A stretch of DNA of 50,527 nt from Flavobacteriaceae bacterium (GTDB lineage Bacteria; Bacteroidota; Bacteroidia; Flavobacteriales; Flavobacteriaceae). A model generated the notes under the pieces. It did no database searches, was not told the DNA's origin, and worked only from the letters and a program-made list of their open reading frames with translations. The DNA lies in NCBI GenBank assembly GCA_020435805.1, contig JAGQZA010000001.1, positions 1 to 50,527 on the forward strand, read 5' to 3'. Positions 2,690 to 18,921 of the stretch are shown here, piece after piece. The translations under genes and the position numbers were made by a program. Each line of letters starts with the position of its first letter. Position 1 is the first letter of the stretch.

Positions 2690-3874
2690 ATGGAAAAAAT
2701 ATCAAAAATAGGAATTATAGGAGCAGGAACCATGGGAAGCGGCATTGCGCAAGTGGCTGCCACAGGCGATTGTAAGGTAAAATTATTCGATACCAATGAA
2801 TCGGCTTTGGAAAAAGCCAAAAATGCTTTAGCCAACATATTAAATAGACTCATTGAAAAAGGCAAGATTGATACTGCTGAAAAAAGCAGAATCGAAGGAA
2901 ATATATCCTATGTAAATTCTTTAAAGGAATTAGCAGATTCGCAATTGGTTATCGAGGCGATTATTGAAAATCTGGAAATAAAACAAAAGGTTTTTCAAGA
3001 ATTGGAAAGCTATGTTTCTGAAGACTGTATTATTGCAACAAACACTTCTTCATTATCGGTAGCATCCATTGCTTCATCACTTCAGAAACCGGAACGATGT
3101 ATAGGGATTCATTTTTTTAATCCGGCGCCTTTGATGCAATTGGTGGAGGTAGTACCTGCCATTCAAACTTCAGGAGCAGTATTGGAAACAGCTTCAAAAA
3201 CCATTAAAAATTGGGGAAAAACAGTTGCGATTGCCAAAGACACCCCAGGTTTTATCGTGAATAGAGTGGCACGCCCATTTTATGGGGAAGCCCTTCGAAT
3301 TTATGAAGAAGGAATCGCTTCTTTTTCTGAAATTGATACTGCTATGAAAGATATGGGAGGATTTCGTATGGGGCCTTTCGAACTCATGGATTTTATTGGG
3401 AACGATGTAAACTATACCGTTACCGAAACAGTTTTTGAAGCTTTTTATTACGATCCGCGCTACAAGCCCTCATTTACCCAAAAGCGCTACAGCGAAGCTG
3501 GTTGGTTAGGAAGAAAATCTGGGAAAGGGTATTACAATTATGATCAAAACGGAAATAGAGAAGAAATTGAGACTGTCTCGTCGAGCGCAGTCGAGACGTC
3601 TCTTTCTAAAGTTATCTTCAACCGAATTTTAGTAATGCTCATCAATGAAGCAGCCGATGCCCTGTTTTGGAACATCGCCTCCGCAGAAGATATTGATAAT
3701 GCCATGACCAAAGGAGTTAATTACCCTAAAGGCTTATTGGCCTGGGCCGATGAAAAGGGAATCGATTGGTGTGTGCAACAAATGGATAATTTGTATGAAA
3801 CCTATCGTGAGGACCGTTATCGATGTTCCCCTTTGCTTAGGAAAATGAGTGTAGAAAGTAAAACCTTCTTTTAG
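2690..3874 (+). CDS. paaH: 3-hydroxyacyl-CoA (3-hydroxyadipyl-CoA) dehydrogenase
   Basis: GAGTMGSGIA Rossmann motif, NTSSLS, GIHFFNPA, PGFIVNRVARP, MGPFELMDFIG. Confidence 0.92.
   Translation: MEKISKIGIIGAGTMGSGIAQVAATGDCKVKLFDTNESALEKAKNALANILNRLIEKGKIDTAEKSRIEGNISYVNSLKELADSQLVIEAIIENLEIKQKVFQELESYVSEDCIIATNTSSLSVASIASSLQKPERCIGIHFFNPAPLMQLVEVVPAIQTSGAVLETASKTIKNWGKTVAIAKDTPGFIVNRVARPFYGEALRIYEEGIASFSEIDTAMKDMGGFRMGPFELMDFIGNDVNYTVTETVFEAFYYDPRYKPSFTQKRYSEAGWLGRKSGKGYYNYDQNGNREEIETVSSSAVETSLSKVIFNRILVMLINEAADALFWNIASAEDIDNAMTKGVNYPKGLLAWADEKGIDWCVQQMDNLYETYREDRYRCSPLLRKMSVESKTFF
3575..3601 (+). repeat. Family A palindrome in-frame within paaH
   Basis: GTCT-CGTC-GAGCGCAGTCGA-GACG-TCT, translated as VSSSAVETS. 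Confidence 0.9.
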
Positions 3875-4282
3875 ATGAAAGGAGAACAAATTCCACATAA
3901 AATGTTATCACAAGATGCCTTTAGCCAATGGCTGGGCATTGAAATTTTAGAATGTGAAGTTGGACGATGCAAAGTGGCAATGACGGTTCGCAAAGATATG
4001 CTGAATAGTATGTATAAAGCACACGGCGGAATTAGTTATTCTCTGGCAGATACAGCTTTCGGATTTGCGGCTAATACCCACGGAAGGTACGCTGTGTCAA
4101 TCGAAACGTCCATTAATCATATTGAAGCGTTGGAAGAAGGTGATATTTTGGTAGCCGAAAGTGTGATTGAAAAAGTAAATAATAAACTGGGTTTTAACGT
4201 AATTGAAGTAAAAAGAGGCGACGAGTTAGTGGCACTTTTTAAGGGTGTTGTATATCGAACTCAAAAAGAATGGACAGAATAG
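3875..4282 (+). CDS. paaI: PaaI-family hotdog thioesterase
   Basis: DAFSQWLGI, HGGISYSLADTAFGFAAN. Confidence 0.9.
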   Translation: MKGEQIPHKMLSQDAFSQWLGIEILECEVGRCKVAMTVRKDMLNSMYKAHGGISYSLADTAFGFAANTHGRYAVSIETSINHIEALEEGDILVAESVIEKVNNKLGFNVIEVKRGDELVALFKGVVYRTQKEWTE

Positions 4283-4290
4283 AAAAATAA

Positions 4291-4320
4291 TTCCCCCTTT
4301 GAAGGGGGTTAGGGGGATGT
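4291..4320 (+). repeat. Family B palindromic repeat, intergenic
   Basis: TTCCCCCTTTGAAGGGGGTTAGGGGGATGT. Confidence 0.88.
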
Positions 4321-4345
4321 TTTCCCTATTTGAAATAGTATATAA

Positions 4346-5557
4346 ATGAAAGAATCTTTTATCATAGACGGAATTAGAACACCCATAGGAAGTTATCAAG
4401 GTACTTTGGGCACCGTCCGCACCGATGATTTAGCGGCAATTGTCATTGCAGAAATCGTTAAACGCAATCCAAACATCCCCAAAGAAGCCTTTGATGATGT
4501 TATTTTAGGATGCGCCAATCAGGCGGGTGAAGATAATAGAAATGTGGCCCGTATGGCGCTGCTGCTGGCAGGACTGCCTTTCACCGTACCCGGTGAAACA
4601 GTCAATAGACTGTGCAGCAGCGGACTTTCAGCCATCATTCACGCCAATCGTGCCATTAAAGCGGGAGATGGTGACCTCTTTATTGCAGGAGGAGTGGAGA
4701 ATATGACCCGTGGGCCGTATGTGATTGCCAAACCCTCTTCTGCCTTTGGAACCGATGCCAAAATGTACGATTCCAGTTTTGGATGGCGCTTTGTGAACCA
4801 GAAAATGCACGAGTTGTATGGAACTGATGGCATGGGCAATACCGCAGAAAATTTGGTAGAAAAATATTCCATTTCCCGTGAAGATCAGGACGCTTTTGCT
4901 TTTAACAGTCAAATGAAAGCTTCTAAAGCGAAAGAGAAGGGACGTTTGGCTAAAGAAATTATTTCGGTGGAAATTCCGCAACGAAAAGGGGATTCTATAT
5001 TATTTTCCGAAGATGAATTCATTAAACCTACTACTACCATTGAAATATTAGCAAAATTACGTCCTGCGTTCAAAAAAGAAGGTAGCGTTACCGCCGGGAA
5101 CAGTTCCGGATTGAATGACGGAGCCGCGGCTACCATTATTGCTTCCGAAGAAGCCGTAAAAAAATATAACTTAAACCCTATTGCTAAAATTGTGAGTTCA
5201 GCGGTGGTAGGTGTAGAACCCAGAATTATGGGTATTGGTCCCGTGGAAGCCAGTAATAAAGCACTTGCCAAAGCAGGTTTAACGATGGCAGATATGGATG
5301 TGATAGAGCTTAATGAAGCCTTTGCATCTCAAGCCTTAGCTTGTATACGTGAATGGGGATTAAAAGATGATGATCCGCGTATTAACCCCAACGGAGGGTC
5401 TATTGCTATAGGGCATCCATTGGGAGTTACGGGAACTAGAATTGCATATTCTGCTGCATTAGAATTGCAACAAACAAATAAAAAATATGCCTTAATTACC
5501 ATGTGTGTGGGGGTTGGACAAGGATATGCCATGATTATTGAGAATGTAAAACTATAA
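4346..5557 (+). CDS. paaJ: 3-oxoadipyl-CoA thiolase (PaaJ/PcaF)
   Basis: GCANQAGEDNRNVARM, TVNRLCSSG, NEAFA, GHPLG, MCVGVGQG thiolase motifs. Confidence 0.92.
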   Translation: MKESFIIDGIRTPIGSYQGTLGTVRTDDLAAIVIAEIVKRNPNIPKEAFDDVILGCANQAGEDNRNVARMALLLAGLPFTVPGETVNRLCSSGLSAIIHANRAIKAGDGDLFIAGGVENMTRGPYVIAKPSSAFGTDAKMYDSSFGWRFVNQKMHELYGTDGMGNTAENLVEKYSISREDQDAFAFNSQMKASKAKEKGRLAKEIISVEIPQRKGDSILFSEDEFIKPTTTIEILAKLRPAFKKEGSVTAGNSSGLNDGAAATIIASEEAVKKYNLNPIAKIVSSAVVGVEPRIMGIGPVEASNKALAKAGLTMADMDVIELNEAFASQALACIREWGLKDDDPRINPNGGSIAIGHPLGVTGTRIAYSAALELQQTNKKYALITMCVGVGQGYAMIIENVKL

Positions 5558-5561
5558 TCAA

Positions 5562-5587
5562 GTCACCTTGAGCGCAGTCGAGAGGTC
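5562..5587 (+). repeat. Family A REP-like palindrome, intergenic
   Basis: GTCA-CCTT-GAGCGCAGTCGA-GAGG-TC. Confidence 0.9.
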
Positions 5588-5594
5588 GTAATAG

Positions 5595-8096
5595 ATGAAT
5601 ATGACAAAAACACAACATTATATCTTAGGAAATTGGAGGGATGGAGACGGCGAAGGAACACCAATTTTAGATTCAGTTACAGGAGAGCATTTTACCAACG
5701 TAACTACACAAGGGCTCGATATTCCTTCTGCTTTGCAATACGGTAGGGGTAAAGGCGAAGCACTCCGTAAAATGACCTTCCAAGAGCGTGGATTAATGCT
5801 GAAAAAATTAGCATTGTACCTCACTAAACGAAAAGAGGCCTTTTATGAATTGAGTTACCGCACTGGTGCCACCAAAATTGACAGTTGGATTGATATTGAA
5901 GGAGGATTTGGAAATTTATTTGCTAATGCTTCCCTTCGGAAATTGTTTCCCAATCAACCCTACCATGTAGAAGGGGACCCCATCGATTTATCACGGGGCG
6001 GTCGTTTTATGGCCCATCATATTATGGTACCCAGAAGAGGGGTGGCGGTTCACATTAATGCTTATAATTTCCCGGTGTGGGGCATGCTGGAAAAGTGTGC
6101 CGTAAACTGGATGGCAGGAATGCCTGCCGTTGTGTTGCCTGCGCCACAAACCGCCTATCTTACCGAAGCCGTTGTAAAGGAAATTGTGGCCTCCGGAATT
6201 TTACCCGAAGGATCCATACAATTGATTAGCGGAACGGCTAAAACAATTTTGGATACGGTGCAATCCCAGGATGTGGTGACCTTTACAGGTTCTGCAAGTA
6301 CCGGAAAAATTTTAAAAAATCATCCGCAACTAATTGAAGAATCGGTGCCCTTTACCATGGAAGCCGACAGCTTGAATGCCTCCATTTTAGGAGAAGATGC
6401 TGTGCCGGGGACTCCTGAATTTGATCTATTTATCAAAGAAGTCCGAAAAGAAATGACCGTGAAAGCGGGGCAGAAATGTACCGCCATCCGAAGGATTTTA
6501 GTCCCCGAAAAATTGGTGGAAGATGTTCAAATTGCCTTGGGAAAAGAACTAGACAAAGTCACTATTGGCGACCCTCGCCTTCAGGAAGTGCGCATGGGTG
6601 CATTAGTAGATAAAAAACAATGCGAATCTGTAAAAGAACAGATTCAGAAAATTGCTAAAACGGCCAATATTGTTTATGGAAATTTAGATGAAGTGGAGAC
6701 TTTGGGTGCCGATGCTTCCAAAGGAGCTTTCCTCAAGCCTATATTACTTCGGGAAGACCAGCCATTAAAACATGAAGCAGCACATATCACTGAAGCCTTT
6801 GGCCCCGTAAGTACCTTAATGCCGTATAAAAATCTGGAGGAAGCCATTCATCTTTCACAAATGGGGAAAGGATCTTTGGTTTCTTCCATAGTAACGTATA
6901 ATGATGCCATTGCGAAAGAATACACCATCAATGCTGCGTCTCATCACGGTAGAATCCTTATTCTAAACCGAGAAAATGCGAAACAAAGTACGGGTCATGG
7001 ATCACCGTTACCTACACTTATTCATGGAGGTCCGGGACGTGCCGGAGGCGGGGAAGAAATGGGTGGATTGCGCGGTATTAAACATTATCTGCAACGTTGT
7101 GCGGTGCAAGGAACGCCTACTACCTTAACAGAGGTAACCGGTATTTATCAACCCAAAGGAGCATATAAAGAAACCCCAAAACATCCTTTTCAATATCATT
7201 GGGAAGATATTGAACCGGGTATGTCCTTGCAAACGCATAAACGCACCATTACGGATAGCGATATTATCAATTTTGCCAATCTTACGTGGGATCACTTTTA
7301 TGCCCATACCGATATTACCTCGCTCGACGGAAGTATTTTTGAAAAGCGAACGGCACACGGCTATTTCATTTTAGCTGCCGCCGCCGGATTATTTGTCTAT
7401 CCCAATAAAGGCCCTGTTGCTGCAAATTATGGATTGGAAGATTGCAGATTCTTGCGCCCTATTTATCATAATGATACCATTTACGTTCGACTTACTTGTA
7501 AACAAAAAATAGATCGTGAACAACGTGGCGCCGAATTACCCAGCGGTATCGTAAAATGGTATGGGGAAGTTTTTGACGCCGATGATGAATTGGTAGCAAT
7601 TGTTACCGTGTTAACGATGGTTCAGAAAAAGCAAACGGTTTTTACGGAAATGACTACTTCAAAAATTGAGGAATGTCTTTCAAAACTTTCGGAGAATTCT
7701 AAGCCACAATGGGGCAATTTAACACCGCAACATATGGTAGAACATCTGGAATATACCTACAGAATTGCTTCCGGGGAAATTCAAGATTTTGAGATTGCTA
7801 CTCCTGAAAAAATTCTCGAAAAAGTACACGCTACCTTGTACAACTACGATAAAATGCCTCGGGAATATGATTTTCCGCTTCGGGAAAAATCTAAAATGGA
7901 GGAATTAAAACATCCCGATTTGCCTTCAGCAAAGCAAAAGTTGATGGAAGCCAGAGAGGCCTATCTTCAGTTTTTTAAGGAACATCCGGAGGCTAAAACC
8001 AAAAATGTGGTGTTTGGAGAGCTCAATAAATTTGAATGGTATTTAATGGAACGTAAACATTTAAATCATCATTTTGAACAATTTAATTTACTGTAA
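5595..8096 (+). CDS. paaZ: Bifunctional oxepin-CoA hydrolase / aldehyde dehydrogenase, with an extra C-terminal DinB/DUF1569-like domain
   Basis: ALDH domain (HINAYNFPVWGMLEK, EADSLN, GQKCTAIRR, GHGSPLP), MaoC hydratase domain (DHFYAH, AHGYF), then about 150 additional residues. Confidence 0.94.
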   Translation: MNMTKTQHYILGNWRDGDGEGTPILDSVTGEHFTNVTTQGLDIPSALQYGRGKGEALRKMTFQERGLMLKKLALYLTKRKEAFYELSYRTGATKIDSWIDIEGGFGNLFANASLRKLFPNQPYHVEGDPIDLSRGGRFMAHHIMVPRRGVAVHINAYNFPVWGMLEKCAVNWMAGMPAVVLPAPQTAYLTEAVVKEIVASGILPEGSIQLISGTAKTILDTVQSQDVVTFTGSASTGKILKNHPQLIEESVPFTMEADSLNASILGEDAVPGTPEFDLFIKEVRKEMTVKAGQKCTAIRRILVPEKLVEDVQIALGKELDKVTIGDPRLQEVRMGALVDKKQCESVKEQIQKIAKTANIVYGNLDEVETLGADASKGAFLKPILLREDQPLKHEAAHITEAFGPVSTLMPYKNLEEAIHLSQMGKGSLVSSIVTYNDAIAKEYTINAASHHGRILILNRENAKQSTGHGSPLPTLIHGGPGRAGGGEEMGGLRGIKHYLQRCAVQGTPTTLTEVTGIYQPKGAYKETPKHPFQYHWEDIEPGMSLQTHKRTITDSDIINFANLTWDHFYAHTDITSLDGSIFEKRTAHGYFILAAAAGLFVYPNKGPVAANYGLEDCRFLRPIYHNDTIYVRLTCKQKIDREQRGAELPSGIVKWYGEVFDADDELVAIVTVLTMVQKKQTVFTEMTTSKIEECLSKLSENSKPQWGNLTPQHMVEHLEYTYRIASGEIQDFEIATPEKILEKVHATLYNYDKMPREYDFPLREKSKMEELKHPDLPSAKQKLMEAREAYLQFFKEHPEAKTKNVVFGELNKFEWYLMERKHLNHHFEQFNLL

Positions 8097-8099
8097 CTC

Positions 8100-8852
8100 A
8101 TGGAAACGCCTTATGTAAAACAATATACTCACAATGGTATTTCCACTATAGAATTTTACCATCCGGAGCATAACAGTTTGCCTGGAGATTTACTAGCTTC
8201 TTTGGTGGAAAATATCGATCATGCCAGTGAAAATGAGGAAGTAAAAGTCGTTATTTTGAAAAGTGGTGGCGATCGTACCTTTTGCGCCGGAGCGAGTTTT
8301 CAGGAATTAATAAGTATTACTAACCCTGAAACCGGGAAAGTGTTTTTTAGTGGTTTTGCCAATGTCATCAATGCCATGCGCAAGTGTCCTAAGTTTATCA
8401 TTGGGCGCATACAAGGAAAGACCGTGGGGGGTGGAGTAGGTTTGGCTTCGGCGACCGATTTTTGTATGGCGACCAAATTTGCCTCCATTAAATTAAGTGA
8501 ATTAAACGTAGGTATTGGCCCCTTTGTAGTGGGGCCCGCAGTACAGCGAAAGTTGGGGGTAAGTGGTATGAGCCAAATTGCCATCGATGCGAATACTTTT
8601 TATTCGGCGGATTGGGCATTGCAAAAAGGACTGTATAATCAGGTGTTTGATACGTTGGAAGAGTTGGATGAAGCCGTTCAGAAATTTGCAAAAAACCTTT
8701 GTAATTACAATCCCGAAGCTATGGCCGAAATGAAGAAAATATTTTGGAAAGGTACCGAGGATTGGGATATGCTACTCGCTGAAAGAGCTGCTATTTCTGG
8801 AAGATTAGTGCTTTCAGAATTTACAAAAAACACATTAAAAAAGTATAAATAA
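8100..8852 (+). CDS. Enoyl-CoA hydratase/isomerase family protein (possibly PaaF role)
   Basis: FCAGASF, GKTVGGGVGLASATD, LSELNVGIGP crotonase motifs. Confidence 0.85.
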   Translation: METPYVKQYTHNGISTIEFYHPEHNSLPGDLLASLVENIDHASENEEVKVVILKSGGDRTFCAGASFQELISITNPETGKVFFSGFANVINAMRKCPKFIIGRIQGKTVGGGVGLASATDFCMATKFASIKLSELNVGIGPFVVGPAVQRKLGVSGMSQIAIDANTFYSADWALQKGLYNQVFDTLEELDEAVQKFAKNLCNYNPEAMAEMKKIFWKGTEDWDMLLAERAAISGRLVLSEFTKNTLKKYK

Positions 8853-8859
8853 GAACCAA

Positions 8860-8890
8860 TTCCCCCTTTGAAGGGGGGTAGGGGGATGTT
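8860..8890 (+). repeat. Family B palindromic repeat, intergenic
   Basis: TTCCCCCTTTGAAGGGGGGTAGGGGGATGTT. Confidence 0.88.
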
Positions 8891-8894
8891 AATA

Positions 8895-9491
8895 ATGATC
8901 TATTCTTTCAAAGGACATATTCCTGTAATTCACGAATCCAGTTTTGTGCATCCGCTAGCTGCTGTTACGGGTAATGTAATTATTGGGAAAAACTGTTATA
9001 TAGGTCCTGGTGCCGCGATCCGAGGGGATTGGGGAGAGATTATTTTGGAAGACGGGGTCAATGTCCAGGAAAGTTGTACCATACATATGTTTCCGGGGAA
9101 AAGCATTGTCTTAAAAGAAAGTGCTCATGTGGGGCACGGTGCTGTTATTCACGGTGCTAATTTGGGCCGAAATTGTTTAATTGGGATGAACAGTGTTATT
9201 ATGGATGATGCCGTCATAGGCGATGAATGTATTGTGGGTGCTATGAGTTTTGTAAAAGCCGAAACTGTATTTGAAGCCAGGCAATTGATTGTGGGAAATC
9301 CTGCAAAAGCCATTAAAGAGGTTACTGAAGAAATGATCGCTTGGAAAACGGCAGGAACAAAATTATACCAGCAATTGCCCAAAGACTGCTTTGAAACCTT
9401 AAAGGAAGTGGAGCCCTTACGTGAAATTCCGAAGGAAAGGCCCAAACAAGAGGATTTTTATAAAACATTGCAAGAAATTAAAAGAAACTAA
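8895..9491 (+). CDS. paaY: PaaY-like hexapeptide-repeat (gamma-carbonic anhydrase family) protein
   Basis: IYSFKG..PV..SSFVHPLA, IRGDWG, HVGHGAVIHG, WKTAGTKLYQQL. Start moved to ATG 8895; the ORF-track extension lies in the repeat. Confidence 0.88.
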   Translation: MIYSFKGHIPVIHESSFVHPLAAVTGNVIIGKNCYIGPGAAIRGDWGEIILEDGVNVQESCTIHMFPGKSIVLKESAHVGHGAVIHGANLGRNCLIGMNSVIMDDAVIGDECIVGAMSFVKAETVFEARQLIVGNPAKAIKEVTEEMIAWKTAGTKLYQQLPKDCFETLKEVEPLREIPKERPKQEDFYKTLQEIKRN

Positions 9492-10762
9492 TGCCGAAAG
9501 TAGAATTCAAAATGCCGCGCTTAGGCGAAAGTATCACCGAAGCTGCCATTATTAAATGGTGGAAAAGTGAAGGTGACACCATTGAAATAGATGAAATTTT
9601 GCTGGAAGTAGCGACCGATAAAGTAGATAGTGAAGTGCCTAGTAACATTTCCGGTACAGTCGTGGAACTTTTGTACCAAGCCAATGATGTTATACAAATT
9701 GGGGCGCCCATTGCCATTATTGATAGTAATGGTAAACCTTTAGAAAAGAAAAAAGCTGTCCCGTCGAGCGCAGTCGAGACGTCTCAAAAAGCTTTAAAAA
9801 CAACTAAAACCTCTCCCCTCCCTCTGGGAGGGGCTGGGGGTGGGATATTTATTTCACCCTTAGTGGAAAGTATTGCGAAGCAACATCATATAAGCTATGA
9901 AGAACTAGCCCGAATCCCGGCATCCGGAAATGACGGAAGACTTCGGAAGAGCGATGTAATGCAGTATATTGCAGAAGGACGACCCTTCAAATTTGCACAA
10001 CCTATTCCTGATAACAGCGGATTTAAAGTTCCCAATTTACAATTTGATAAAGGCAAAGGGAAATTGGTGGAAATGGACCGTATGCGCCAAATGATTGCAG
10101 ATCATATGGTGTTCAGTAAACATACCTCGCCTCATGTAACTGCTTATGTGGAAGCTGACCTTACAGAAATGGTTAGCTGGAGAAATAAGGTAAAGTCTAA
10201 TTTTCAGAAAAAATACAACGAAAAATTGACATTTACCCCACTGTTTATTGAATGCATTGCTAAAGCAATAAAAGAATATCCTATGATTAATTCTTCGTTA
10301 GATGGTAAAAACATCATTGTAAAAGATGATATCAACATAGGGATGGCAACAGCATTGCCTTCGGGAAACTTAATTGTTCCTGTGGTTCGGAATGCCGATA
10401 AAAAAACGCTGCAGGAATTAGCCGCCATTACCAATGAACTTGCTACTAAGGCCCGAGAAGGGAAATTAACCGCCGATGAAACCAAAGGCTCTACTTTTAC
10501 CATAAGTAATGTGGGGACTTTTGGTAGCTTGATGGGAACCCCCATAATTAATCAGCCGGAAGCGGCCATTTTAGCTACGGGAATTATAAAAAAGCGTGCA
10601 GAAGTGATGGAGAGAGAAAGTGGAGATTCCATTGAAATTAGAAGTATGATGTACCTATCCCTTTCCTTCGATCACCGAATTGTAGATGGGTATTTAGCCG
10701 GTTCTTTTTTACGAAGAATAGCCGATGAAATGGAACAGTTTGATGTGAATAGAGAACTATGA
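9491..10762 (+). CDS. 2-oxoacid dehydrogenase E2 (dihydrolipoamide acyltransferase)
   Basis: Lipoyl motif EVATDKVDSEVPS, peripheral subunit-binding domain (SPLV..IA...GSG.DGRL), catalytic DHRIVDG. Confidence 0.93.
   Translation: MPKVEFKMPRLGESITEAAIIKWWKSEGDTIEIDEILLEVATDKVDSEVPSNISGTVVELLYQANDVIQIGAPIAIIDSNGKPLEKKKAVPSSAVETSQKALKTTKTSPLPLGGAGGGIFISPLVESIAKQHHISYEELARIPASGNDGRLRKSDVMQYIAEGRPFKFAQPIPDNSGFKVPNLQFDKGKGKLVEMDRMRQMIADHMVFSKHTSPHVTAYVEADLTEMVSWRNKVKSNFQKKYNEKLTFTPLFIECIAKAIKEYPMINSSLDGKNIIVKDDINIGMATALPSGNLIVPVVRNADKKTLQELAAITNELATKAREGKLTADETKGSTFTISNVGTFGSLMGTPIINQPEAAILATGIIKKRAEVMERESGDSIEIRSMMYLSLSFDHRIVDGYLAGSFLRRIADEMEQFDVNREL
9758..9784 (+). repeat. Family A palindrome in-frame in the E2 linker
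   Basis: GTCC-CGTC-GAGCGCAGTCGA-GACG-TCT, translated as VPSSAVETS. Confidence 0.9.
9813..9844 (+). repeat. Family B-like palindrome in-frame in the E2 linker
   Basis: CTCCCCTCCC-TCT-GGGAGGGG-CT-GGGGGTGGG, translated as SPLPLGGAGGG; same pyrimidine-stem/purine-stem/G-run layout as family B. Confidence 0.75.
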
Positions 10763-12867
10763 TAAAGGAGAATAAATCAAGTTTGAAAGCTACAAGATTA
10801 GATAGAGAGATATTGGTAAAAGCCTTCGCCAATCTATGCACTGCTAAGGCGATGACCTTTTTATACGAAGAGAATTTTAAAGTGGTTTCCAAATATGTGC
10901 ATGCCACTTCCAGGGGTCATGAGGTTATTCAAACCGCAGTGGGACTGCAATTGAAGCCTCAGGATTATGCTTTTCCTTATTATCGTGACGATTCCATGCT
11001 TTTGGCTATTGGGATGCAACCGTATGATTTGATGCTTCAAGTGTTGGCCAAGCGAGACGATCCTTTTTCGGGTGGGAGAACCTATTATTCGCACCCCAGT
11101 TTAAAAGATGAAGACAAGCCTAAAATTCCGCATCAAAGCTCGGCCACCGGAATGCAAGCTATCCCTGCTACCGGAGTCGCTATGGGGTTTTGGTACAAAG
11201 AAGCAGAAGGTATTGATGATGTCACCCTGAGCGCAGTCGAAGGGTCATTAGAAAGGCCAATAGTAGTTTGTAGTTTAGGGGACGCTTCCGTTACCGAAGG
11301 CGAAATAGCCGAAGCCTTTCAAATGGCTGCTTTAAAACAGCTTCCTGTTTTATATCTGGTGCAAGATAACGGTTGGGATATTTCAGCGAATGCTGAAGAA
11401 ACCCGCGCCCAAAATGCTTTTGAATACGCCAAAGGATTCCATGGGTTGGAAGCCGTTACTATCGATGGAACCAATTTTGAAGAAAGTTATCAAACTATTC
11501 AGAATATCATTGAAATTATTCGAAAAGAGCGCCGTCCTTTTTTGGTACATGCGAAAGTTCCTTTGTTAAACCACCATACCTCAGGAGTGCGCATGGAATG
11601 GTATCGAGATGATTTGGAAGAAGCTCGTATGCGAGATCCGTACCCAAAAATGCAAAAATTGTTGGAAGACTACGGATTTACCAAAAAGGAAATTCAGCAA
11701 ATAGAAAACGATTGTATTGACAAGGTGCGAGCCGATTTAGAAAAAGCCTTACAAGCCGAAGATCCCAAACCGGAGGATTTGTTTACTCATGATTTTGCGC
11801 CCACACCTGTTTTAGAAGAAGTAGGGGAGCGTTCCCCAAAAGATGCCGAGAGGGTTGTGATGGTCGATTGTGCCCTTTTTGCCATAGAGGAACTTATGGC
11901 AAAACACAAAGAATGTTTGCTGTACGGACAGGATGTAGGAGGAAGGCTGGGAGGTGTTTTTCGGGAGGCTGCTACATTGGCGCAGAAATTTGGCGATAAT
12001 CGAGTGTTTAATACTCCCATTCAGGAAGCCTTTATTGTGGGTTCTACCGTGGGGATGAGTGCCGTGGGGTTAAAACCCATTGTTGAGGTGCAATTTGCCG
12101 ATTATATTTGGCCGGGTCTTAATCAATTATTTACCGAAGTTTCCCGAAGCTGTTACCTTTCAAACGGAAAATGGCCTGTTTCTATGATTTTACGAGTACC
12201 AATTGGGGCGTATGGGAGTGGAGGGCCCTATCATTCTTCTTCCGTAGAAAGTATTGTCACCAATATCCGTGGTTTAAAAATTGCCTATCCCAGTAATGGA
12301 GCCGATTTAAAAGGATTGCTAAAAGCTGCCTATTATGATCCCAATCCTGTAGTAATATTTGAACATAAAGGGCTATACTGGAGTAAAGTGCCAGGGACCA
12401 AAGGAGCTACCAGTTTAGAACCTGCCGAGGATTATATACTTCCTTTTGGGAAAGCTTGGGTGCTACAGGAAATTTGGAAGCAGGAAGAGGAAGAGACCCT
12501 CTCTATTATTACCTACGGAATGGGTGTGCATTGGGCGATGAATGCTTCTGAAGAACTTGAAATGCAAGATCGTATTGAAATTGTAGATTTACGAACCTTA
12601 CATCCCATAGATTGGGAAACGATTTATACCAGTGCAAAAAAATGTGGGAAGTGTTTAATTGTTACCGAAGAACCTTCCGATAATGGTTTTGCCAGAAGTA
12701 TTCAAGCAAAAATACAAGAAGCGTGTTTTGAGCAGTTAGATGCCCCGGTAATGCTTATTGGTTCCGAAAATATGCCAGCCATTCCGTTAAATAGTGTTTT
12801 AGAGCAAACCATGATTCCTTCCGTGGAAAAAGTAAAAGTAAAAATTCTTGAGATATTGAATTATTAA
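10759..12867 (+). CDS. 2-oxoacid dehydrogenase E1, fused alpha/beta subunits (branched-chain type)
   Basis: ThDP motif GDASVTEG...QDN, HHTSG, GQDVGG..GGVFR, NTPIQE, EVQFADYI, GGPYHS. Confidence 0.93.
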   Translation: MIKENKSSLKATRLDREILVKAFANLCTAKAMTFLYEENFKVVSKYVHATSRGHEVIQTAVGLQLKPQDYAFPYYRDDSMLLAIGMQPYDLMLQVLAKRDDPFSGGRTYYSHPSLKDEDKPKIPHQSSATGMQAIPATGVAMGFWYKEAEGIDDVTLSAVEGSLERPIVVCSLGDASVTEGEIAEAFQMAALKQLPVLYLVQDNGWDISANAEETRAQNAFEYAKGFHGLEAVTIDGTNFEESYQTIQNIIEIIRKERRPFLVHAKVPLLNHHTSGVRMEWYRDDLEEARMRDPYPKMQKLLEDYGFTKKEIQQIENDCIDKVRADLEKALQAEDPKPEDLFTHDFAPTPVLEEVGERSPKDAERVVMVDCALFAIEELMAKHKECLLYGQDVGGRLGGVFREAATLAQKFGDNRVFNTPIQEAFIVGSTVGMSAVGLKPIVEVQFADYIWPGLNQLFTEVSRSCYLSNGKWPVSMILRVPIGAYGSGGPYHSSSVESIVTNIRGLKIAYPSNGADLKGLLKAAYYDPNPVVIFEHKGLYWSKVPGTKGATSLEPAEDYILPFGKAWVLQEIWKQEEEETLSIITYGMGVHWAMNASEELEMQDRIEIVDLRTLHPIDWETIYTSAKKCGKCLIVTEEPSDNGFARSIQAKIQEACFEQLDAPVMLIGSENMPAIPLNSVLEQTMIPSVEKVKVKILEILNY
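11221..11246 (+). repeat. Family A palindrome in-frame within E1
   Basis: GTCA-CCCT-GAGCGCAGTCGA-AGGG-TC, translated as VTLSAVEGS. Confidence 0.9.
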
Positions 12868-12903
12868 GTACATTTCAAGTCTTAACATAAATTTGTTTTT
12901 ACT

Positions 12904-14517
12904 ATGAAAGCTCTTTTTACTAGTTTCCTCTTTTTCTTTGCCTTTTTTGTGAACGCTCAATGGACAACCGATACGGATTTAAATACTTTAGTAGCCGATA
13001 GTGAAGGTGGCGACATGAAAGCTTTGGGAGGCTCTAATGGCAATACGTATGTGGTTTTTTGGAAATCGGTGGCAGCACCTACCAATTATGAATTGCGATT
13101 GCAAATACTGGATGCTAACGGCAACCAATTGCTGGGAAATGATGGTTCTTTGGTAAGTAACCTTATTCCCATGAGTACTTTCACGGTTATATGGAATGTA
13201 GTATTAGACGCCAATAATAATCTTTATATTGGAGCAACAGGTACCGGCGGGGGAGATCCTGCCTATGTGTTTAAGTTGGATGCCAACGGAAACAATTTAT
13301 GGGGTCCTTCGGGGGAAAATATAGGTAGCGGTAATTTAGTAACAGTACTTCCTCTTTTGGACGGTAGCATTATAGCAAGTTGGTACTCGGGTTCGGGCGG
13401 TTTGATGCAAAAAATAGATAGTAATGGCAACAGTCTTTGGCCATCAAATCAACCCATAGAAATAGGTGCTACAGATACTGCGCCAGCCAATTTGTTTGAA
13501 CTATCCGGAAATGAGTTTGCCTTAGTATATCATAAATTAATTGGTGGGATTAATTCTCATCTATATACGCAAAAGTACGATACCAATGGGGATCCGGTTT
13601 GGGGAGCTGCCGTACAAATTTGTAATCAGGCAACGGCTTTTAATAGAAGTTATACAGGACTACAGGACGGAGATGTAATGTATATGGGTTATTTTGGATC
13701 TTCCGGAGTACGGTTCGACTCCTTTTTACAACGCATTAATCCGGACGGAACATTGCCATGGGGAGTTAACGGTTCCGATTTTGATACCAACCAAACCAAT
13801 TACGAAACCTACACCGAAATTGCTTTTGAAGCCGGTTCTCAAAATATCTGGGCCGTTTGTAACTATACAAATACTTCGCAAAGCGATCATGGTGAATATG
13901 TCCAAAAATTTGATAAAGATACCGGAGCAAGACTTTTGGGAAACAATGCCAAAGAAGTATATTCCATTGGAAGCGATAATGTTCATGCAGGAGCGTTGCA
14001 ATTGAAAAATGATAGTCCGTTGTTTCTCTTAAAAAAAGGATTTGATAATGGTGCTACGCCCACAACGTTAGATGTGGTGCATTTAGATGAAAACGGCGAT
14101 TTTGCTTGGCCCGAAGAATCCCGACCTGTTGCAACTTTTAGTGCTAGTAAAAGTAGAATTCATTACACAAAACCGGTAAATCATCAAAGTGTTGCAGTTT
14201 TTATTGAAAATAAAGGAGGTGGTGAAAGAATGTATGCGCAAAATTTTTTGGATGAAGAGTTAAGCGTTGGCGATAAGCCAACTTCCATAATGATACGGTA
14301 TCACAACCCAGTTGAAAACCTCCTTTTCTTGGAAGCAGAGATTCCAATAAAGAAGATGGTAGTTTATTCTACTAAAGGAGAGAAGTTAATCGATAAAAGT
14401 AAAATTCATAAAAATGAAATTACCATAAATTGTGCATCGTGGACTTCGGGTATTTATTTTGTAAAAATAGTTGCTGAAAATGATGTAACTAAGACTCTTC
14501 GTATTATTAAAAAATAA
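12904..14517 (+). CDS. T9SS type A sorting-domain protein, probable beta-propeller
   Basis: Signal peptide (VNA-Q), recurring K/R-x-D-x-N-G-x-x-x-W repeats, CTD (HNPV...SGIYFVKI...RIIKK). Confidence 0.8.
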   Translation: MKALFTSFLFFFAFFVNAQWTTDTDLNTLVADSEGGDMKALGGSNGNTYVVFWKSVAAPTNYELRLQILDANGNQLLGNDGSLVSNLIPMSTFTVIWNVVLDANNNLYIGATGTGGGDPAYVFKLDANGNNLWGPSGENIGSGNLVTVLPLLDGSIIASWYSGSGGLMQKIDSNGNSLWPSNQPIEIGATDTAPANLFELSGNEFALVYHKLIGGINSHLYTQKYDTNGDPVWGAAVQICNQATAFNRSYTGLQDGDVMYMGYFGSSGVRFDSFLQRINPDGTLPWGVNGSDFDTNQTNYETYTEIAFEAGSQNIWAVCNYTNTSQSDHGEYVQKFDKDTGARLLGNNAKEVYSIGSDNVHAGALQLKNDSPLFLLKKGFDNGATPTTLDVVHLDENGDFAWPEESRPVATFSASKSRIHYTKPVNHQSVAVFIENKGGGERMYAQNFLDEELSVGDKPTSIMIRYHNPVENLLFLEAEIPIKKMVVYSTKGEKLIDKSKIHKNEITINCASWTSGIYFVKIVAENDVTKTLRIIKK

Positions 14518-14624
14518 TTTTGTTTTGAAATATTAATTTTTAAAAAGGGATACGGTTTTAAATTTAGGGCAAAACCCCCTTTCACAGGAGTTTACTGTAT
14601 CTTAATTTTAGAAAAACTAAAATT

Positions 14625-14951
14625 ATGTACCAATACAAAGCAAAAATTATTGATGTGTATGATGGGGATACCGTTACCGCTGTAGTGGACTTGGGGTTTC
14701 TTCATTTTCAAGAAATGAAATTACGACTTTACGGAATTAATACTCCGGAATTAAAAGGAGAAGATAGGGATCGCGGTCTTGTGGTAAGAGATATTTTACG
14801 AAATCTTATTTTAGACAAGGAAGTAATGATTCATTCCTATAAAGATAAACAAGGTAAATACGGGCGTTACTTAGCCACTATTTTCCTCGATGGACTTAAT
14901 ATTAACAACTGGTTAGTAGATGAAGGCCATGCGGTTGTTTATATGCCATAA
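14625..14951 (+). CDS. Thermonuclease (SNase-like) protein without signal peptide
   Basis: VYDGDT, RLYGINTPE, GKYGRYLA, INNWLVDEGHA motifs. Confidence 0.85.
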   Translation: MYQYKAKIIDVYDGDTVTAVVDLGFLHFQEMKLRLYGINTPELKGEDRDRGLVVRDILRNLILDKEVMIHSYKDKQGKYGRYLATIFLDGLNINNWLVDEGHAVVYMP

Positions 14952-14975
14952 AAAAGGCGCCTGATGGCGCCTTTT
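14952..14975. terminator. Bidirectional intrinsic terminator
   Basis: AAAAGGCGCC-TGAT-GGCGCCTTTT between convergent genes. Confidence 0.85.
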
Positions 14976-14994
14976 CAAGAAAATTAATTGCTTA

Positions 14995-16080
14995 TTAAAC
15001 TTTAATTAATTTTATGGTTTTTGAGGCATTGCCCGAGCTAACTTTTGCCATGTAAGTTCCCGAATTTAAAGAAGAGATATCAACTGTCATGGTATTCGAA
15101 TTCCCTTCAACTACTTTCACTGTTTGTCCTAAAATGTTGAAGATTTCTATTTGAGTAATCTGATTTTCAGTAGTAATGGTTATAAAATTTTCAGCAGGAT
15201 TTGGAAACGCAGCTACCTGCTGTAGCGTAGTTTCTTGAGTTCCTAAACCGTCATCATAAATAATAAGATCATATTCTGAATTTACAGGAAATGCAGTGCC
15301 ATCTTCGGTATAGATAGACCAGTTGGATCCAGTGTACCACGCTCCTAATATTTCATTTACAATAACATTGGAGGGTTGTCCACTCTCTCCCCAATTATGC
15401 GTAAATACAAATTTAGCGTCAGGTTTTCCGTTTAAAGCAGGATGATCGATGATGGTATAATTACCAAAAACAGTCCCTGCAGTAGCTGCGTGGCGGTAGG
15501 GTACAGCTACACCTCCATTAATGGCTACCATAAAAGCATCGCCAAATTGAATAGTAGAAGCATCCTCGGTATAAAGATTCCAGAAAGAACCATCATACCA
15601 AGTACCATAAGTAAAATCGTTTCTTGAGCTGTTAGGGTTATAGTAGGTTGTAATAACTACTTGAGCTTCCGGATTACCATTAATATCGGGATGATTTAAA
15701 ACCGTGTAGGAAGGGTCGCTACCTTGGTTTCCGGCATCGGCAATATGAACAAACATGTTAGAGCCTTCCTCGATGTAAATAAAATAAGAAGAGTCCTCAA
15801 CAATATTAGCACTATCTTCATTATAAACTCCCCATTTTGCTTGTACAGAGTCATAGTAGAGTCCGGTTCTATGTGGGTTGTAAATACCAGGAGATCCGGG
15901 TGGATTCCATGCATGAGATACTACTAATTGAGCAGAGGGATTCCCATTTAAATCGGGATGGTCTATATAACTTAAATCCGCAGAAATAGTTCCTGCAGTA
16001 GCGGTATGCACAAACATAACATCCTGTGCAAAAAGAGCAGAAAAAGAAATGGTTAATAAAAAAGTAAAGATTGTTTTCAT
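14995..16080 (-). CDS. T9SS type A protein with three tandem ~85-aa repeats
   Basis: Start MKTIFTF (ATG 16080), signal peptide, three repeats with H.A..G....Y..IDHP.LNG.P.A...WY.G..W..Y.ED, CTD (FPNPA...SGTYMAKV...KLIKV). Confidence 0.82.
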   Translation of the reverse strand: MKTIFTFLLTISFSALFAQDVMFVHTATAGTISADLSYIDHPDLNGNPSAQLVVSHAWNPPGSPGIYNPHRTGLYYDSVQAKWGVYNEDSANIVEDSSYFIYIEEGSNMFVHIADAGNQGSDPSYTVLNHPDINGNPEAQVVITTYYNPNSSRNDFTYGTWYDGSFWNLYTEDASTIQFGDAFMVAINGGVAVPYRHAATAGTVFGNYTIIDHPALNGKPDAKFVFTHNWGESGQPSNVIVNEILGAWYTGSNWSIYTEDGTAFPVNSEYDLIIYDDGLGTQETTLQQVAAFPNPAENFITITTENQITQIEIFNILGQTVKVVEGNSNTMTVDISSLNSGTYMAKVSSGNASKTIKLIKV

Positions 16081-16107
16081 AGTTATTGGTTTAGAATTTG
16101 TTATACA

Positions 16108-16115
16108 CAAAAGTA
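16108..16115 (-). promoter_or_regulatory. Bacteroidota -7 promoter box
   Basis: TACTTTTG (TAnnTTTG) on the minus strand, 27 nt upstream of the ATG. Confidence 0.6.
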
Positions 16116-16226
16116 ACTCATTTTGAATTAGTTGTAATAGGTTAACGCCCTTTTTTTGCATGGGGGAATTACCCTATATATTTTTATTTAAGTAAAATTG
16201 GGTGTCAAATCCAAAGAAATTAGCTA

Positions 16227-16259
16227 ATATGTAACAAAGAATAGAATATATGTAACAAA
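16227..16259. promoter_or_regulatory. 12-bp direct repeat with 21-bp period (putative regulator site)
   Basis: ATATGTAACAAA at 16227 and 16248. Confidence 0.5.
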
Positions 16260-16315
16260 AGTGAATGGGTATATAAAATTGAATGAAAAGACGATTTTTA
16301 AAAGAGGTAAGAAAT

Positions 16316-16349
16316 AAAAAACCTCCATAACAAAAGTCGTGGAGGTTTT
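16316..16349 (-). terminator. Intrinsic terminator after the DUF4136 gene
   Basis: AAAACCTCCAT...GTGGAGGTTTT stem; A-run gives a U-tract on the minus strand. Confidence 0.7.
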
Positions 16350-16367
16350 GAAAAAGTATTTTTGTAA

Positions 16368-16901
16368 TTACTTTTCGGGTGGATACTTTGCTAATATTTC
16401 TCTTACAATTTCTCTTATTCGTTCTTCTTTCTTCTCAATATTACCCAATGTTATAAGGCGGGCACTGCCCACGCCTTGCCAAACCAGCTCGTTGGTTTTG
16501 GCATCTATTAAATCAATATATAATTGTCCTTCGGTAGTCCTTGAAACCGTATTGCCCCAGTAACCGCCATACCACCAAGGATTCCATCCCCATCCCCATC
16601 CAAAATTGTTGTTGTACACATCGACACGTTCTTGTTCTTTGGTAAAAATACTGACCAGCATGGTCGGGCTTTCAGATTTTTGAATTCCTTTGGCAGAAAG
16701 TTCTGCGTCAATCGCTCTCAAGATTCTTTTTTTGTCCAAATCACTAATCTTTGCTTTGTCAATACCTGGTTTGTAAAAGGCAAAAGAAGTGTAATTGCCA
16801 AAATTGGCATTCTTGTCATAATCTGTCGCTACTCTTACGGTAGTACAGGAGGATGCTACTAAAACAAGTAGCAACAAGGGTAAAAATTTCATTTTTTTCA
16901 T
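16368..16901 (-). CDS. DUF4136-family lipoprotein
   Basis: Lipobox VASSC, DYDKNANF..Y..FAF, EGQLYIDLIDAKTNELVWQG. Confidence 0.85.
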   Translation of the reverse strand: MKKMKFLPLLLLVLVASSCTTVRVATDYDKNANFGNYTSFAFYKPGIDKAKISDLDKKRILRAIDAELSAKGIQKSESPTMLVSIFTKEQERVDVYNNNFGWGWGWNPWWYGGYWGNTVSRTTEGQLYIDLIDAKTNELVWQGVGSARLITLGNIEKKEERIREIVREILAKYPPEK

Positions 16902-16911
16902 AGCAGAATAT

Positions 16912-18921
16912 TTATTGAAACAATTTTTCATCAACCAAATTAGGAAGCGTCACTTTTAGTAATGGCTCTTGTTGCATTGCTCTTTTAATGGCAAAGATAG
17001 CTTCATCATTTCGAGCCCAACTTCGCCGTGCGATTCCGTTGTTTACATCCCAAAAAAGCATCGATTCCAGACGGGATTGCGCTTCTTTACTACCATCAAG
17101 AACCATACCGAATCCGCCATTCATCACTTCTCCCCAGCCAACACCACCGCCATTATGGATACTCACCCAGGTTGCCCCACGAAAACTGTCTCCTATTACA
17201 TTATGAATCGCCATGTCTGCTGTAAAACGGCTACCATCGTAAATATTTGAAGTTTCCCTGTAAGGAGAATCTGTTCCAGAAACATCGTGGTGATCTCTTC
17301 CTAAAATAACCAAACCTATTTTACCTTCAGAAATAGCTTTATTGAATGCTGAAGCTATTTCTACTCTCCCGTTACTGTCTGCATATAAAATACGAGCTTG
17401 TGACCCCACGACCAATTTATTTTCCTGTGCCCCTTTTATCCACTGAATATTATCCTGCATTTGTTGCTGAATTTCAGTAGGGGATTCCTTCATTAACCGT
17501 TCTAAAACTTGTGTTGCTATTTCATCGGTTTTTGCTAAATCTTCTGGTTTTCCTGAAGCGCATACCCATCGGAAAGGGCCAAACCCATAATCGAAACACA
17601 TGGGGCCCATAATGTCTTGTACATAGCTTGGGTATTTAAATTCTCGTTGAGGTTTCGACTGCGCTCGACCAGACAAGTCTTTTTCAGCTAAAATATCAGC
17701 ACCCGCCCGAGACGCTTCCAGTAAAAATGCATTTCCATAATCGAAAAAATAGGTGCCTTTTGCCGTATGTTTATTGATAGCAGTAGCATGGCGGCGTAAG
17801 CTTTCCTGGACTTTTTCCTTAAAGAGGGTAGGATTATTGGCCATTAGTTTGTTGGCTTCTTCATAACTCATTCCTGCAGGATAATAGCCCCCTGCCCAAG
17901 GGTTGTGAAGTGAAGTTTGGTCGCTCCCTAAATCTATTTGGATGTTTTCTTTGTCGAAATACTCCCAAACTTCAACTACATTGCCATCATATGCAATAGA
18001 AACAGTTTCTTTATTTGCAACAGCTTTTTTTACACGGGATGCTAATTCAGGTAATTCTGAAATTACCTCATCTACCCATCCTTGACTGTGGCGTGTGTGA
18101 GTTGCTTTTTGGTTTACTTCGGCACAAACAGTAACACAACCGGCAATATTTCCGGCTTTGGGTTGTGCCCCACTCATCCCGCCTAAACCGGACGTAACAA
18201 ATAATCCGCCTTTAGGCTTCTTTTTTATTTTTCTGAAACCATTTAAAACGGTAATAGTAGTGCCATGAACAATGCCTTGAGGGCCAATGTACATATAACT
18301 ACCGGCGGTCATTTGGCCGTACTGAGTAACTCCTAAAGCGTTAAATTTCTCCCAATCGTCGGGTTGTGAATAGTTAGGAATCATCATTCCATTGGTAACA
18401 ACTACGCGCGGGGCATTTTTATGTGAAGGAAATAGCCCAAGGGGGTGGCCAGAATACATAACGAGTGTTTGCTCGTCGGTCATTTCAGAAAGGTATTTCA
18501 TGACCAAACGGTATTGAGCCCAATTCTGAAATACGGCACCATTGCCACCATAGGTGATTAGTTCGTGCGGGTGTTGTGCCACGGCATGGTCCAAATTATT
18601 TTGAATCATTAGCATAATAGCCTTGGCTTGTTCAGATTTTCCAGGGTATTCCGAAATAGAACGCGCAAAAATTTTATGATCCGGCATGAAACGGTACATG
18701 TAAATCCTTCCGTAGGTTTCCAACTCTTCTTTAAATTCGGGTAGAAGCGTGGCGTGGTGTTTGGGTTCAAAGTATCGTAATGCATTTTGAAGGGCTAATT
18801 TTTTTTCCGCATCGTTTAAAATTTCTTTCCTTTTGGGTGCGTGATTTATGGATGGATCGTATGCTTTAGCAGTGGGTAAGGTATCTGGAATTCCTTGTAG
18901 TATTTCTTCTTGGAAGGTCAT
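16912..18921 (-). CDS. hutU: Urocanate hydratase (long form)
   Basis: NNLD..VAQHPHELITYGGNG, GQMTAGSYMYIGPQGIVHGT, GLGGMSGAQP, GRDHHD, HNGGGVGWG. Confidence 0.97.
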   Translation of the reverse strand: MTFQEEILQGIPDTLPTAKAYDPSINHAPKRKEILNDAEKKLALQNALRYFEPKHHATLLPEFKEELETYGRIYMYRFMPDHKIFARSISEYPGKSEQAKAIMLMIQNNLDHAVAQHPHELITYGGNGAVFQNWAQYRLVMKYLSEMTDEQTLVMYSGHPLGLFPSHKNAPRVVVTNGMMIPNYSQPDDWEKFNALGVTQYGQMTAGSYMYIGPQGIVHGTTITVLNGFRKIKKKPKGGLFVTSGLGGMSGAQPKAGNIAGCVTVCAEVNQKATHTRHSQGWVDEVISELPELASRVKKAVANKETVSIAYDGNVVEVWEYFDKENIQIDLGSDQTSLHNPWAGGYYPAGMSYEEANKLMANNPTLFKEKVQESLRRHATAINKHTAKGTYFFDYGNAFLLEASRAGADILAEKDLSGRAQSKPQREFKYPSYVQDIMGPMCFDYGFGPFRWVCASGKPEDLAKTDEIATQVLERLMKESPTEIQQQMQDNIQWIKGAQENKLVVGSQARILYADSNGRVEIASAFNKAISEGKIGLVILGRDHHDVSGTDSPYRETSNIYDGSRFTADMAIHNVIGDSFRGATWVSIHNGGGVGWGEVMNGGFGMVLDGSKEAQSRLESMLFWDVNNGIARRSWARNDEAIFAIKRAMQQEPLLKVTLPNLVDEKLFQ
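17651..17674 (-). repeat. Family A palindrome in-frame within hutU
   Basis: Minus strand GTCT-GGTC-GAGCGCAGTCGA-AACC, translated as LSGRAQSKP (a different frame from the other coding copies). Confidence 0.88.

What the first reader, a model, noticed from the sequence alone, without database searches (positions are those of the whole stretch)
3575..17674. The palindromic element sits in-frame inside four enzyme genes, adding peptide inserts
Seen: family A copies lie within paaH (VSSSAVETS), E2 (VPSSAVETS), E1 (VTLSAVEGS) and hutU (LSGRAQSKP) with the ORFs intact. Three use the same frame (V-x-x-S-A-V-E-x-S) and hutU uses another. The core is 24 nt, a multiple of three. The sites look like linkers or loops: the interdomain linker of PaaH, the post-lipoyl linker of E2, the loop before the E1 ThDP motif, and the segment between AGADI and FKYPSYVQ of HutU. 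Known: Rickettsia palindromic elements (about 150 bp) insert into ORFs in this way. Inference: this is a miniature protein-colonising repeat that adds new peptide sequence and may also put a hairpin into the mRNA. I consider it the best candidate for an under-described system here.
Basis: partly seen in the sequence, partly recalled or inferred. Interest (0 to 1): 0.88.

Follow-up and report, generated by a model that had tools for sequence, protein, structure and literature searches.

The report
Hairpin repeats reuse same enzyme loops
A short DNA repeat that mostly lies between genes sits in frame in flexible loops of four intact enzyme genes, related bacteria carry different repeats in several of the same loops, and a tiny nuclease gene bracketed by this repeat likely spreads it; repeats inside genes are a known phenomenon, but this repeat-nuclease pair and the reuse of loops appear undescribed.

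Summary
Confirmed. Four in-frame copies of a 26-28 nt GTC-tagged hairpin repeat lie in paaH, E2, E1 and hutU; relatives have shorter alleles (E1 +8 aa, hutU +7 aa versus congeners). It is not a dedicated protein coloniser: 56 of 70 genomic copies are outside gene interiors. It is a CGTC-type REP, and in-frame REPs are already tabulated (PMC3733652), including in PDH E1/E2. Three things go further. (1) A 116-aa GIY-YIG gene elsewhere in this genome is bracketed by inverted copies, as are 68 of its 80 closest homologues, in at least 21 contexts; the layout is Ssn-like, but the protein branch and repeat differ. (2) The same loops are reused: 33 of 52 lengthened paaH linkers (106 genera) hold one of three REP families, and two congeners carry a whole DUF559 domain at the leuS site. 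(3) The paa region looks enriched in repeats and GIY-YIG genes. Best model: nuclease-driven spread (inferred) plus selection that spares in-frame copies in the few tolerant loops. The scan has noted in-frame REPs and Ssn-like cassettes on other DNA before.

The parts
2690..3874 (+). paaH-like 3-hydroxyacyl-CoA dehydrogenase, intact ORF of 394 aa
   Evidence: dN/dS 0.09-0.11 against three congeners
3574..3601 (+). repeat A in frame in the paaH linker (VSSSAVETS, from aa 296)
   Evidence: decayed copies in G001 and G002; modal family linker 6 aa shorter
9491..10762 (+). 2-oxoacid dehydrogenase E2, intact ORF of 423 aa
9757..9784 (+). repeat A in frame in the post-lipoyl linker of E2 (VPSSAVETS, from aa 90)
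   Evidence: shared with G001; G002 has a second 24-nt repeat nested in its loop; absent in G003-G006
9811..9840 (+). second, unrelated repeat (family B, C-run/G-run hairpin) in frame in the same E2 linker (SPLPLGGAGGG); replaces linker, G000 only
10759..12867 (+). fused E1 alpha/beta of a 2-oxoacid dehydrogenase, intact ORF of 702 aa
11220..11247 (+). repeat A in frame in the E1 loop before the ThDP-binding GD motif (VTLSAVEGS, from aa 155); +8 aa against five of six congeners
   Evidence: loop between helix and strand in the model, pLDDT under 50; gap against PDB 1um9
16912..18921 (-). hutU urocanate hydratase, intact ORF of 669 aa
17648..17675 (-). repeat A in frame in a hutU loop (LSGRAQSKP); +7 aa against all six congeners; no copy in the other 29 loci read
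   Evidence: gap region against PDB 6uek
520..547 (+). intergenic repeat A upstream of paaC
1337..1364 (+). intergenic repeat A between paaC and paaD, ending about 7 nt before the start codon
2658..2685 (+). intergenic repeat A between paaG and paaH, ending about 5 nt before the start codon
5561..5588 (+). intergenic repeat A between the thiolase gene and paaZ, ending about 7 nt before the start codon
4293..4316 (+). intergenic family B repeat
8862..8885 (+). family B repeat just before the paaY coding region

Best explanation
The four peptides are translated copies of a GTC-tagged REP-type hairpin repeat that is likely spread by a small GIY-YIG nuclease whose gene it brackets, and that likely persists inside genes only where it lands in frame in one of the few loops that tolerate extra residues. 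Shown: the repeat, its covarying stem, the empty alleles, the depletion inside genes, the loop positions, the repeat-nuclease-repeat cassette in many contexts, and different repeat families at the same loops in relatives. Inferred: that the nuclease nicks single-stranded DNA beside the hairpin (by analogy with SsnA), that repair copies a repeat into the nick with variable loss of flanks, and that the inserts are near neutral for the enzymes. A site that already holds a repeat is probably hit again (nesting, doubling, replacement).
For: Stem: 4 pairs hold in 50/50, 50/50, 50/50 and 49/50 exact copies (G-T allowed) with 2-3 pair types each; 17 inverted dimers. Depletion: 14 of 70 copies mid-gene against 77% of sequence. 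Frame filter: of those 14, 9 read V-x-x-S-A-V-E, 2 V-S-T-A-L, 2 R-A-Q-S, 1 E-C-S-R, although all six frames are open in 48-70 of 70 copies. Loops: across 17-27 orthologues of 12 genes only 11 internal indel sites exist, and the four copies sit in the four widest. Host genes dN/dS 0.03-0.11. Partner: G000:C80:197-547, PF01541, is bracketed by inverted copies; 68 of the best 80 homologue loci have copies on both sides (71 upstream, 77 downstream; 2 of 73 in a distal control stretch), in 21 upstream and 24 downstream neighbour clusters; nuclease subclades carry their own repeat types. No Y1 transposase found in G000. Reuse: paaH linker 33 of 52 long alleles (19 A, 9 C, 5 D), 0 of 17 short, codon-shuffled mean 0.5; E1 loop 12 of 29 long, 0 of 17 short; other families at the leuS, icmF, metG, GSCFA and mvd sites in congeners.
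Against: No activity was measured; flanking shows association, not mobilisation, and SsnA has been shown to cut and to modulate transformation, not to move its repeat (PMC11893778). Several genomes with many copies showed no close C80 homologue (G030 24 copies, G031 22, best E about 1e-7; G001 17 copies, best E 4e-11; G020 9 copies, no match), though some may have lost it. G000 is 79% complete, so a transposase could be missing. No target-site duplication or exact ends could be defined because congeners are at dS near or above 1. The indel-site test is partly circular (repeats make indels). The paaH tree is weak (11 of 72 branches starred, bootstrap unsettled), and many filled alleles share a DENGK flank, so some 'independent' gains may be one old gain that was later overwritten. 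No listed RNA contig bridges an insert.
Confidence: 0.6

Rival explanations
1. Slot reuse is the main process: an occupied loop is actively re-targeted, so existing repeats are nested into, doubled or overwritten by other repeat families or whole nuclease cassettes, homing-style.
For: A 24-nt repeat is nested in the loop of the E2 copy of G002; nested inserts at the same loop position are visible in some cassette flanks (L360, L383, L353); double and triple copies in paaH of G263 and G161; family B plus a DUF559-like domain in frame at the leuS site of G002 and G004; the E2 copies of G000 and G001 differ at 1 of 26 nt although dS is 1.0.
Against: The genes tested have very few tolerant loops, so filtering of random insertions also predicts recurrence; the paaH copies in G001 and G002 are decaying. 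The two models are not exclusive.
Confidence: 0.3
2. The repeat is spread by something else (a transposase in trans, or recombination between copies); the GIY-YIG cassette merely shares it as a target or regulatory end.
For: PMC3733652 found no dedicated transposase for CGTC REPs and suggested broad-spectrum mobilisation; copy number and close homologue presence do not match in all genomes.
Against: 68 of 80 cassettes have inverted copies and each nuclease subclade has its own repeat type; no PF01797 match in G000 (incomplete genome).
Confidence: 0.25
3. The intragenic copies are kept for a function at RNA or DNA level (mRNA processing, pausing, or marking the operon for the nuclease to limit incoming DNA).
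For: Single copies are mostly on the coding strand (11 of 12 mid-gene, 12 of 16 in same-direction spacers) and several end 3-7 nt before a start codon; all 33 paaH-linker repeats are in sense; 8 copies lie in 17 kb here.
Against: Weak fold; presence is patchy among congeners and half of the genera have the short paaH linker; peptide-level selection can explain part of the strand bias.
Confidence: 0.12
4. V-x-x-S-A-V-E is an ordinary linker motif and the DNA resemblance is incidental.
For: The residues are typical of linkers.
Against: The same letters occur 56 times outside gene interiors and in four reading frames inside; orthologues with S-A-V-E use the repeat's own codons.
Confidence: 0.01

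Closest known systems
CGTC-tagged REPs, including intragenic copies (Di Nocera et al. 2013, PMC3733652)
   Same: Unpaired TGTC/CGTC tag at one end, covarying stem, head-to-head type inverted dimers, mostly intergenic, occurrence in Flavobacteriaceae (Gramella forsetii listed), single copies coding 8-9 aa inside enzymes including PDH E1/E2 and tRNA synthetases, proposed to sit in linkers or loops.
   Different: Stem here is 4 firm pairs plus a bulged inner part, not 8-9 pairs with a 4-5 nt loop; first stem position is variable; the paper's supplement 3 lists no Bacteroidetes intragenic case and no peptide like these; it found no mobilising enzyme and only one case of the same site used twice (recB). 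Figure 2 consensus sequences could not be seen.
Ssn nucleases with NTS/SRM repeats (Chenal et al. 2025, PMC11893778)
   Same: Single-domain GIY-YIG of about 100 aa, gene bracketed by inverted GTC-tagged hairpins that are also dispersed in the genome; repeat type follows protein subclade.
   Different: The published SRM pattern does not match repeat A (1 unrelated hit in G000); the protein resembles UPF0213 structures (1zg2, E 1e-9) while paa-region GIY-YIGs flanked by NTS-like repeats do not (E 0.07) and fall on the other side of a long branch; NTS is rarely intragenic (2%), repeat A 20%.
Rickettsia palindromic elements (as reviewed in PMC10969869; RPE-4 and RPE-6 are CGTC REPs per PMC3733652)
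   Same: In-frame translated palindromic inserts in unrelated housekeeping proteins.
   Different: RPE-1 type is about 150 bp and nearly half of RPEs are in ORFs; here 26-28 nt, 20% in ORFs, free-living host.
REPtron: GTAG REPs with RAYT (Y1 HUH transposase)
   Same: Repeat-enzyme-repeat layout thought to generate dispersed repeats.
   Different: Different tag and enzyme; no PF01797 match in G000.

Membership tests
CGTC-tagged REP | 20-40 bp multicopy repeat with unpaired CGTC/TGTC tag at one end | tested here: met
   70 copies, TGTC-led
CGTC-tagged REP | stem kept by compensatory changes | tested here: met
   4 pairs, 49-50 of 50 copies paired, several pair types
CGTC-tagged REP | mostly intergenic, often inverted dimers | tested here: met
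   56 of 70 outside gene interiors; 17 dimers
CGTC-1 to CGTC-4 families | 8-9 bp stem with 4-5 nt loop and the family consensus | tested here: inconclusive
   stem is shorter and bulged; Figure 2 not readable; core letters not found in the four supplements held
Ssn/SRM system | single-domain small GIY-YIG bracketed by its repeat | tested here: met
Ssn/SRM system | repeat matches the SRM pattern | tested here: not met
Ssn/SRM system | protein in the cd10448 clade | tested here: inconclusive
   no CDD and no SsnA sequence at hand; UPF0213-like by PDB and a separate branch in a 30-protein quick tree suggest not
Ssn/SRM system | sequence-specific cleavage of single-stranded DNA beside the repeat | not testable with these tools
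   needs an assay
Rickettsia RPE-1 type | about 150 bp element coding a conserved peptide, about half in ORFs | tested here: not met
   26-28 nt; 14 of 70 mid-gene; four frames used
REPtron (GTAG REP + RAYT) | GTAG tag and Y1 transposase | tested here: not met
   TGTC tag; PF01797 not found in a 79% complete genome
MITE | terminal inverted repeats and target-site duplication | tested here: inconclusive
   no duplication visible at the E1 and hutU sites, but empty alleles are too diverged

The most novel reading that the evidence does not exclude
A non-Ssn branch of tiny GIY-YIG nucleases is the missing mobiliser of flavobacterial CGTC repeats, and loops once colonised become permanent slots that are re-targeted and overwritten by other repeat families or whole nuclease domains, so that fixed loops of core enzymes keep receiving new peptide sequence across a whole bacterial family, with the paa operon as a preferred landing zone.
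Probability: 0.3. Interest if true: 0.72.

Novelty: new variant of a known kind. Interest (0 to 1): 0.5.

Why it matters
How CGTC repeats arise has been open since 2013 (PMC3733652). This gives a concrete, assayable enzyme-repeat pair outside the published SRM pattern, and a natural series of filled, empty, decayed, nested and replaced alleles at the same protein loops. If the pair cuts as predicted it adds a new single-strand DNA specificity; the loop series also marks insertion-tolerant sites in E1, E2, PaaH, HutU, LeuS and MetG. The in-frame insertion itself is not new.

Tried and rejected
Rfam: no match in window 1-20000 at gathering score. SRM pattern: no match to repeat A. RAYT: none found. 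NCBIfam gave no family for the C80 protein. Single-sequence fold of E1 alpha was useless (pLDDT 44); the 35-sequence model was usable (pLDDT 76). The loose repeat pattern gave many false hits in conserved coding sequence; only its indel-site list is used. Reads: eight runs showed no 21-24 nt deletion allele at any insert, but cover is patchy and contigs drop rare variants; the two RNA runs had small shares and no listed piece bridging an insert, so expression is untested. Target-site duplication could not be defined. Terminator role for single copies was set aside (weak fold). Literature searches; none listed a paper on this repeat, its nuclease branch or repeated loop use in Flavobacteriaceae (26 papers hold the letters, the 10 listed are unrelated). 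Subscription papers, figures, and 2 of 14 Ssn supplements were not seen.
Full report
Setting. The window is contig C111 of a 2.38 Mb, 79% complete assembly. The best relatives of a gene from it are Flavobacteriaceae. It holds a paa operon followed by E2 and fused E1 genes, and hutU on the other strand.

Observation. The four copies and peptides are as described. The repeat reads TGTC, four to five variable bases, YGAGCGCAGTCGA, then the complement of the variable bases. There are 69 strict copies against 0.33 in shuffled genomes; a slightly relaxed rule adds the hutU copy, giving 70. In 50 exact-pattern copies chosen without regard to pairing, four stem pairs hold in 49-50 of 50 with several pair types; the single broken pair is in the hutU copy. 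The fold is weak. Contigs of another study bridge the E1 and paaH copies.

Empty alleles. Against six congeners: E1 is +8 aa versus five and +6 versus the sixth, and hutU is +7 versus all six; both copies are confined to G000. None of the other 29 hutU loci read has a copy. The paaH copy is shared, decayed, with G001 and G002. The E2 copy is shared with G001, and G002 has another 24-nt repeat nested in its loop. G000 E2 also carries an unrelated family B repeat that replaces linker and is 10 aa shorter than G001 there. Host genes are intact with dN/dS 0.03-0.11 (pairwise values do not isolate the time after insertion). The E1 insert lies in the low-confidence loop between a helix and the strand before the GD motif, and falls in alignment gaps against 1um9; the hutU insert lies in a gapped stretch against 6uek.

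Not a protein specialist. With my own ORF caller, 14 of 70 copies are mid-gene while such sequence is 77% of the assembly. Nine use the V-x-x-S-A-V-E frame, two V-S-T-A-L, two R-A-Q-S and one E-C-S-R, although most frames are open. Across 17-27 orthologues of 12 genes there are 11 internal indel sites, and the four copies occupy the four widest (partly circular, but the hutU loop also varies without repeats). This fits filtering by selection (inference).

Known kind. PMC3733652 (seen: part 2 of 8 of the text, passages, supplements 3 and 6 whole; figures not) defines CGTC/TGTC-tagged REPs, lists Gramella forsetii, tabulates intragenic single copies of 8-9 aa including PDH E1 and E2 of S. alaskensis and an E2 of O. 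terrae, suggests linkers or loops, and finds no dedicated transposase. PMC10969869 (passages) gives the RPE comparison.

Likely partner. G000:C80:197-547 codes a 116-aa GIY-YIG protein between inverted copies of the repeat. Of 357 relatives found, the best 80 were kept: 71 have a sense copy upstream, 77 an antisense copy downstream, 68 both; a distal control stretch had 2 of 73; neighbours fall into 21 and 24 clusters, so the cassette has moved. More distant homologues carry other GTC-led repeats, sorted by subclade. This is the layout of Ssn/SRM (PMC11893778; seen: abstract, passages, sections 8, 10, 12, search of 12 of 14 supplements), where SsnA nicks one strand a few bases before the tag. 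But the SRM pattern misses repeat A, and the supplement rows for two species whose records carry this cassette show only 7 and 4 hits (my reading of columns whose heads were not shown). The protein is UPF0213-like and on its own long branch (SH-aLRT 94, quick tree). Against a strict link: some repeat-rich genomes gave no close homologue.

Reuse of loops. Among 300 family genomes, about one per genus, 106 have this paaH; by my count of the table 53 have the modal short linker and 53 a longer one. All 53 longer ones were read (52; G006) and 17 of the 53 short. With up to 3 mismatches, 33 of 52 long linkers hold a repeat (19 A, 9 C, 5 D, all sense), 0 of 17 short, codon-shuffled mean 0.5 (patterns were drawn from these loci). 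On a tree of the flanks the labels are scattered (A needs 18 changes, shuffled 19.4; starred branches force at least 4, 4 and 3 changes for A, C, D), but the tree is weak. At the E1 loop I read 49 of 98 loci, the second batch picked for length; 46 parsed; 12 of 29 long hold a repeat in several frames and both orientations, 0 of 17 short. At eight other mid-gene sites of G000 compared with up to five congeners: the glycosyltransferase copy is a clean +8 aa; leuS is empty in G001 and holds a family B start plus about 125 extra residues in G002 and G004 (DUF559-like by eye, not scanned); icmF and metG hold family C in other congeners; GSCFA and mvd hold other repeats in G003; metH and the second E2 are shared or variable.

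paa region. Eight of 70 copies lie in 17 kb here (Poisson 7e-8, region chosen after the fact). In 20 other genomes, 20-kb paa regions had 33 repeat hits against 9 in one control stretch each (Wilcoxon p 0.006; 4 in shuffles) and 6 GIY-YIG genes in 5 regions against 0. Patterns and the profile came partly from paa-region loci, so this is suggestive. The same spacers also take four-helix-bundle-like and other small genes (names by eye). The cause is unexplained.

Mechanism and verdict. Most likely: the cassette nuclease nicks single-stranded DNA beside the hairpin, repair copies repeats to new places with variable flank loss, most coding hits are purged, and in-frame copies in rare tolerant loops persist and are often hit again. 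Sequence facts are shown; nicking, copying and neutrality are inferred. In-frame REPs are known; the pair and the family-wide reuse were not found in my seven searches. Earlier scan notes report similar in-frame repeats and Ssn-like cassettes on other DNA. New variant of a known kind; interest 0.5.

Noticed in passing
G000:C189:123-593 (L266): 156-aa DUF559 gene (PF04480) bracketed by family B C-run/G-run repeats: a second repeat-nuclease cassette; about 27 family B sites in the genome.
   Followed up: partly
L269, L270 (G004:C46, G002:C6), leuS editing domain: About 125 extra residues in frame, starting with a family B repeat and looking DUF559-like, at the site where G000 and G003 have repeat A and G001 is empty.
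   Followed up: partly
G000:C235:8081-8395 (L066): Second small GIY-YIG, 47% identical to C80, flanked by a longer GTC-led repeat (family F).
   Followed up: partly
window 1337, 2658, 5561 and other spacers: Single copies often end 3-7 nt before a start codon, placing a GAGAGG/GAGGGG stretch where a Shine-Dalgarno would be; Bacteroidetes are said to rarely use one (recalled).
   Followed up: no
L059-L064, L217-L236: paa operon spacers carry many variable small genes (four-helix-bundle-like, GIY-YIG, toxin-antitoxin-like pair, aminotransferase between E2 and E1 in many genera but not in this genus), named by eye.
   Followed up: partly
G000:C228:65-535: A second E1-like fragment 71% identical to the window's E1.
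   Followed up: no
L360, L383, L353, L364: Other short elements are nested at the centre of repeat A's loop in cassette flanks.
   Followed up: partly
window 22678-28093: Run of four secreted-looking proteins that start with a similar 'QVGIGT/QVGINT' segment.
   Followed up: no
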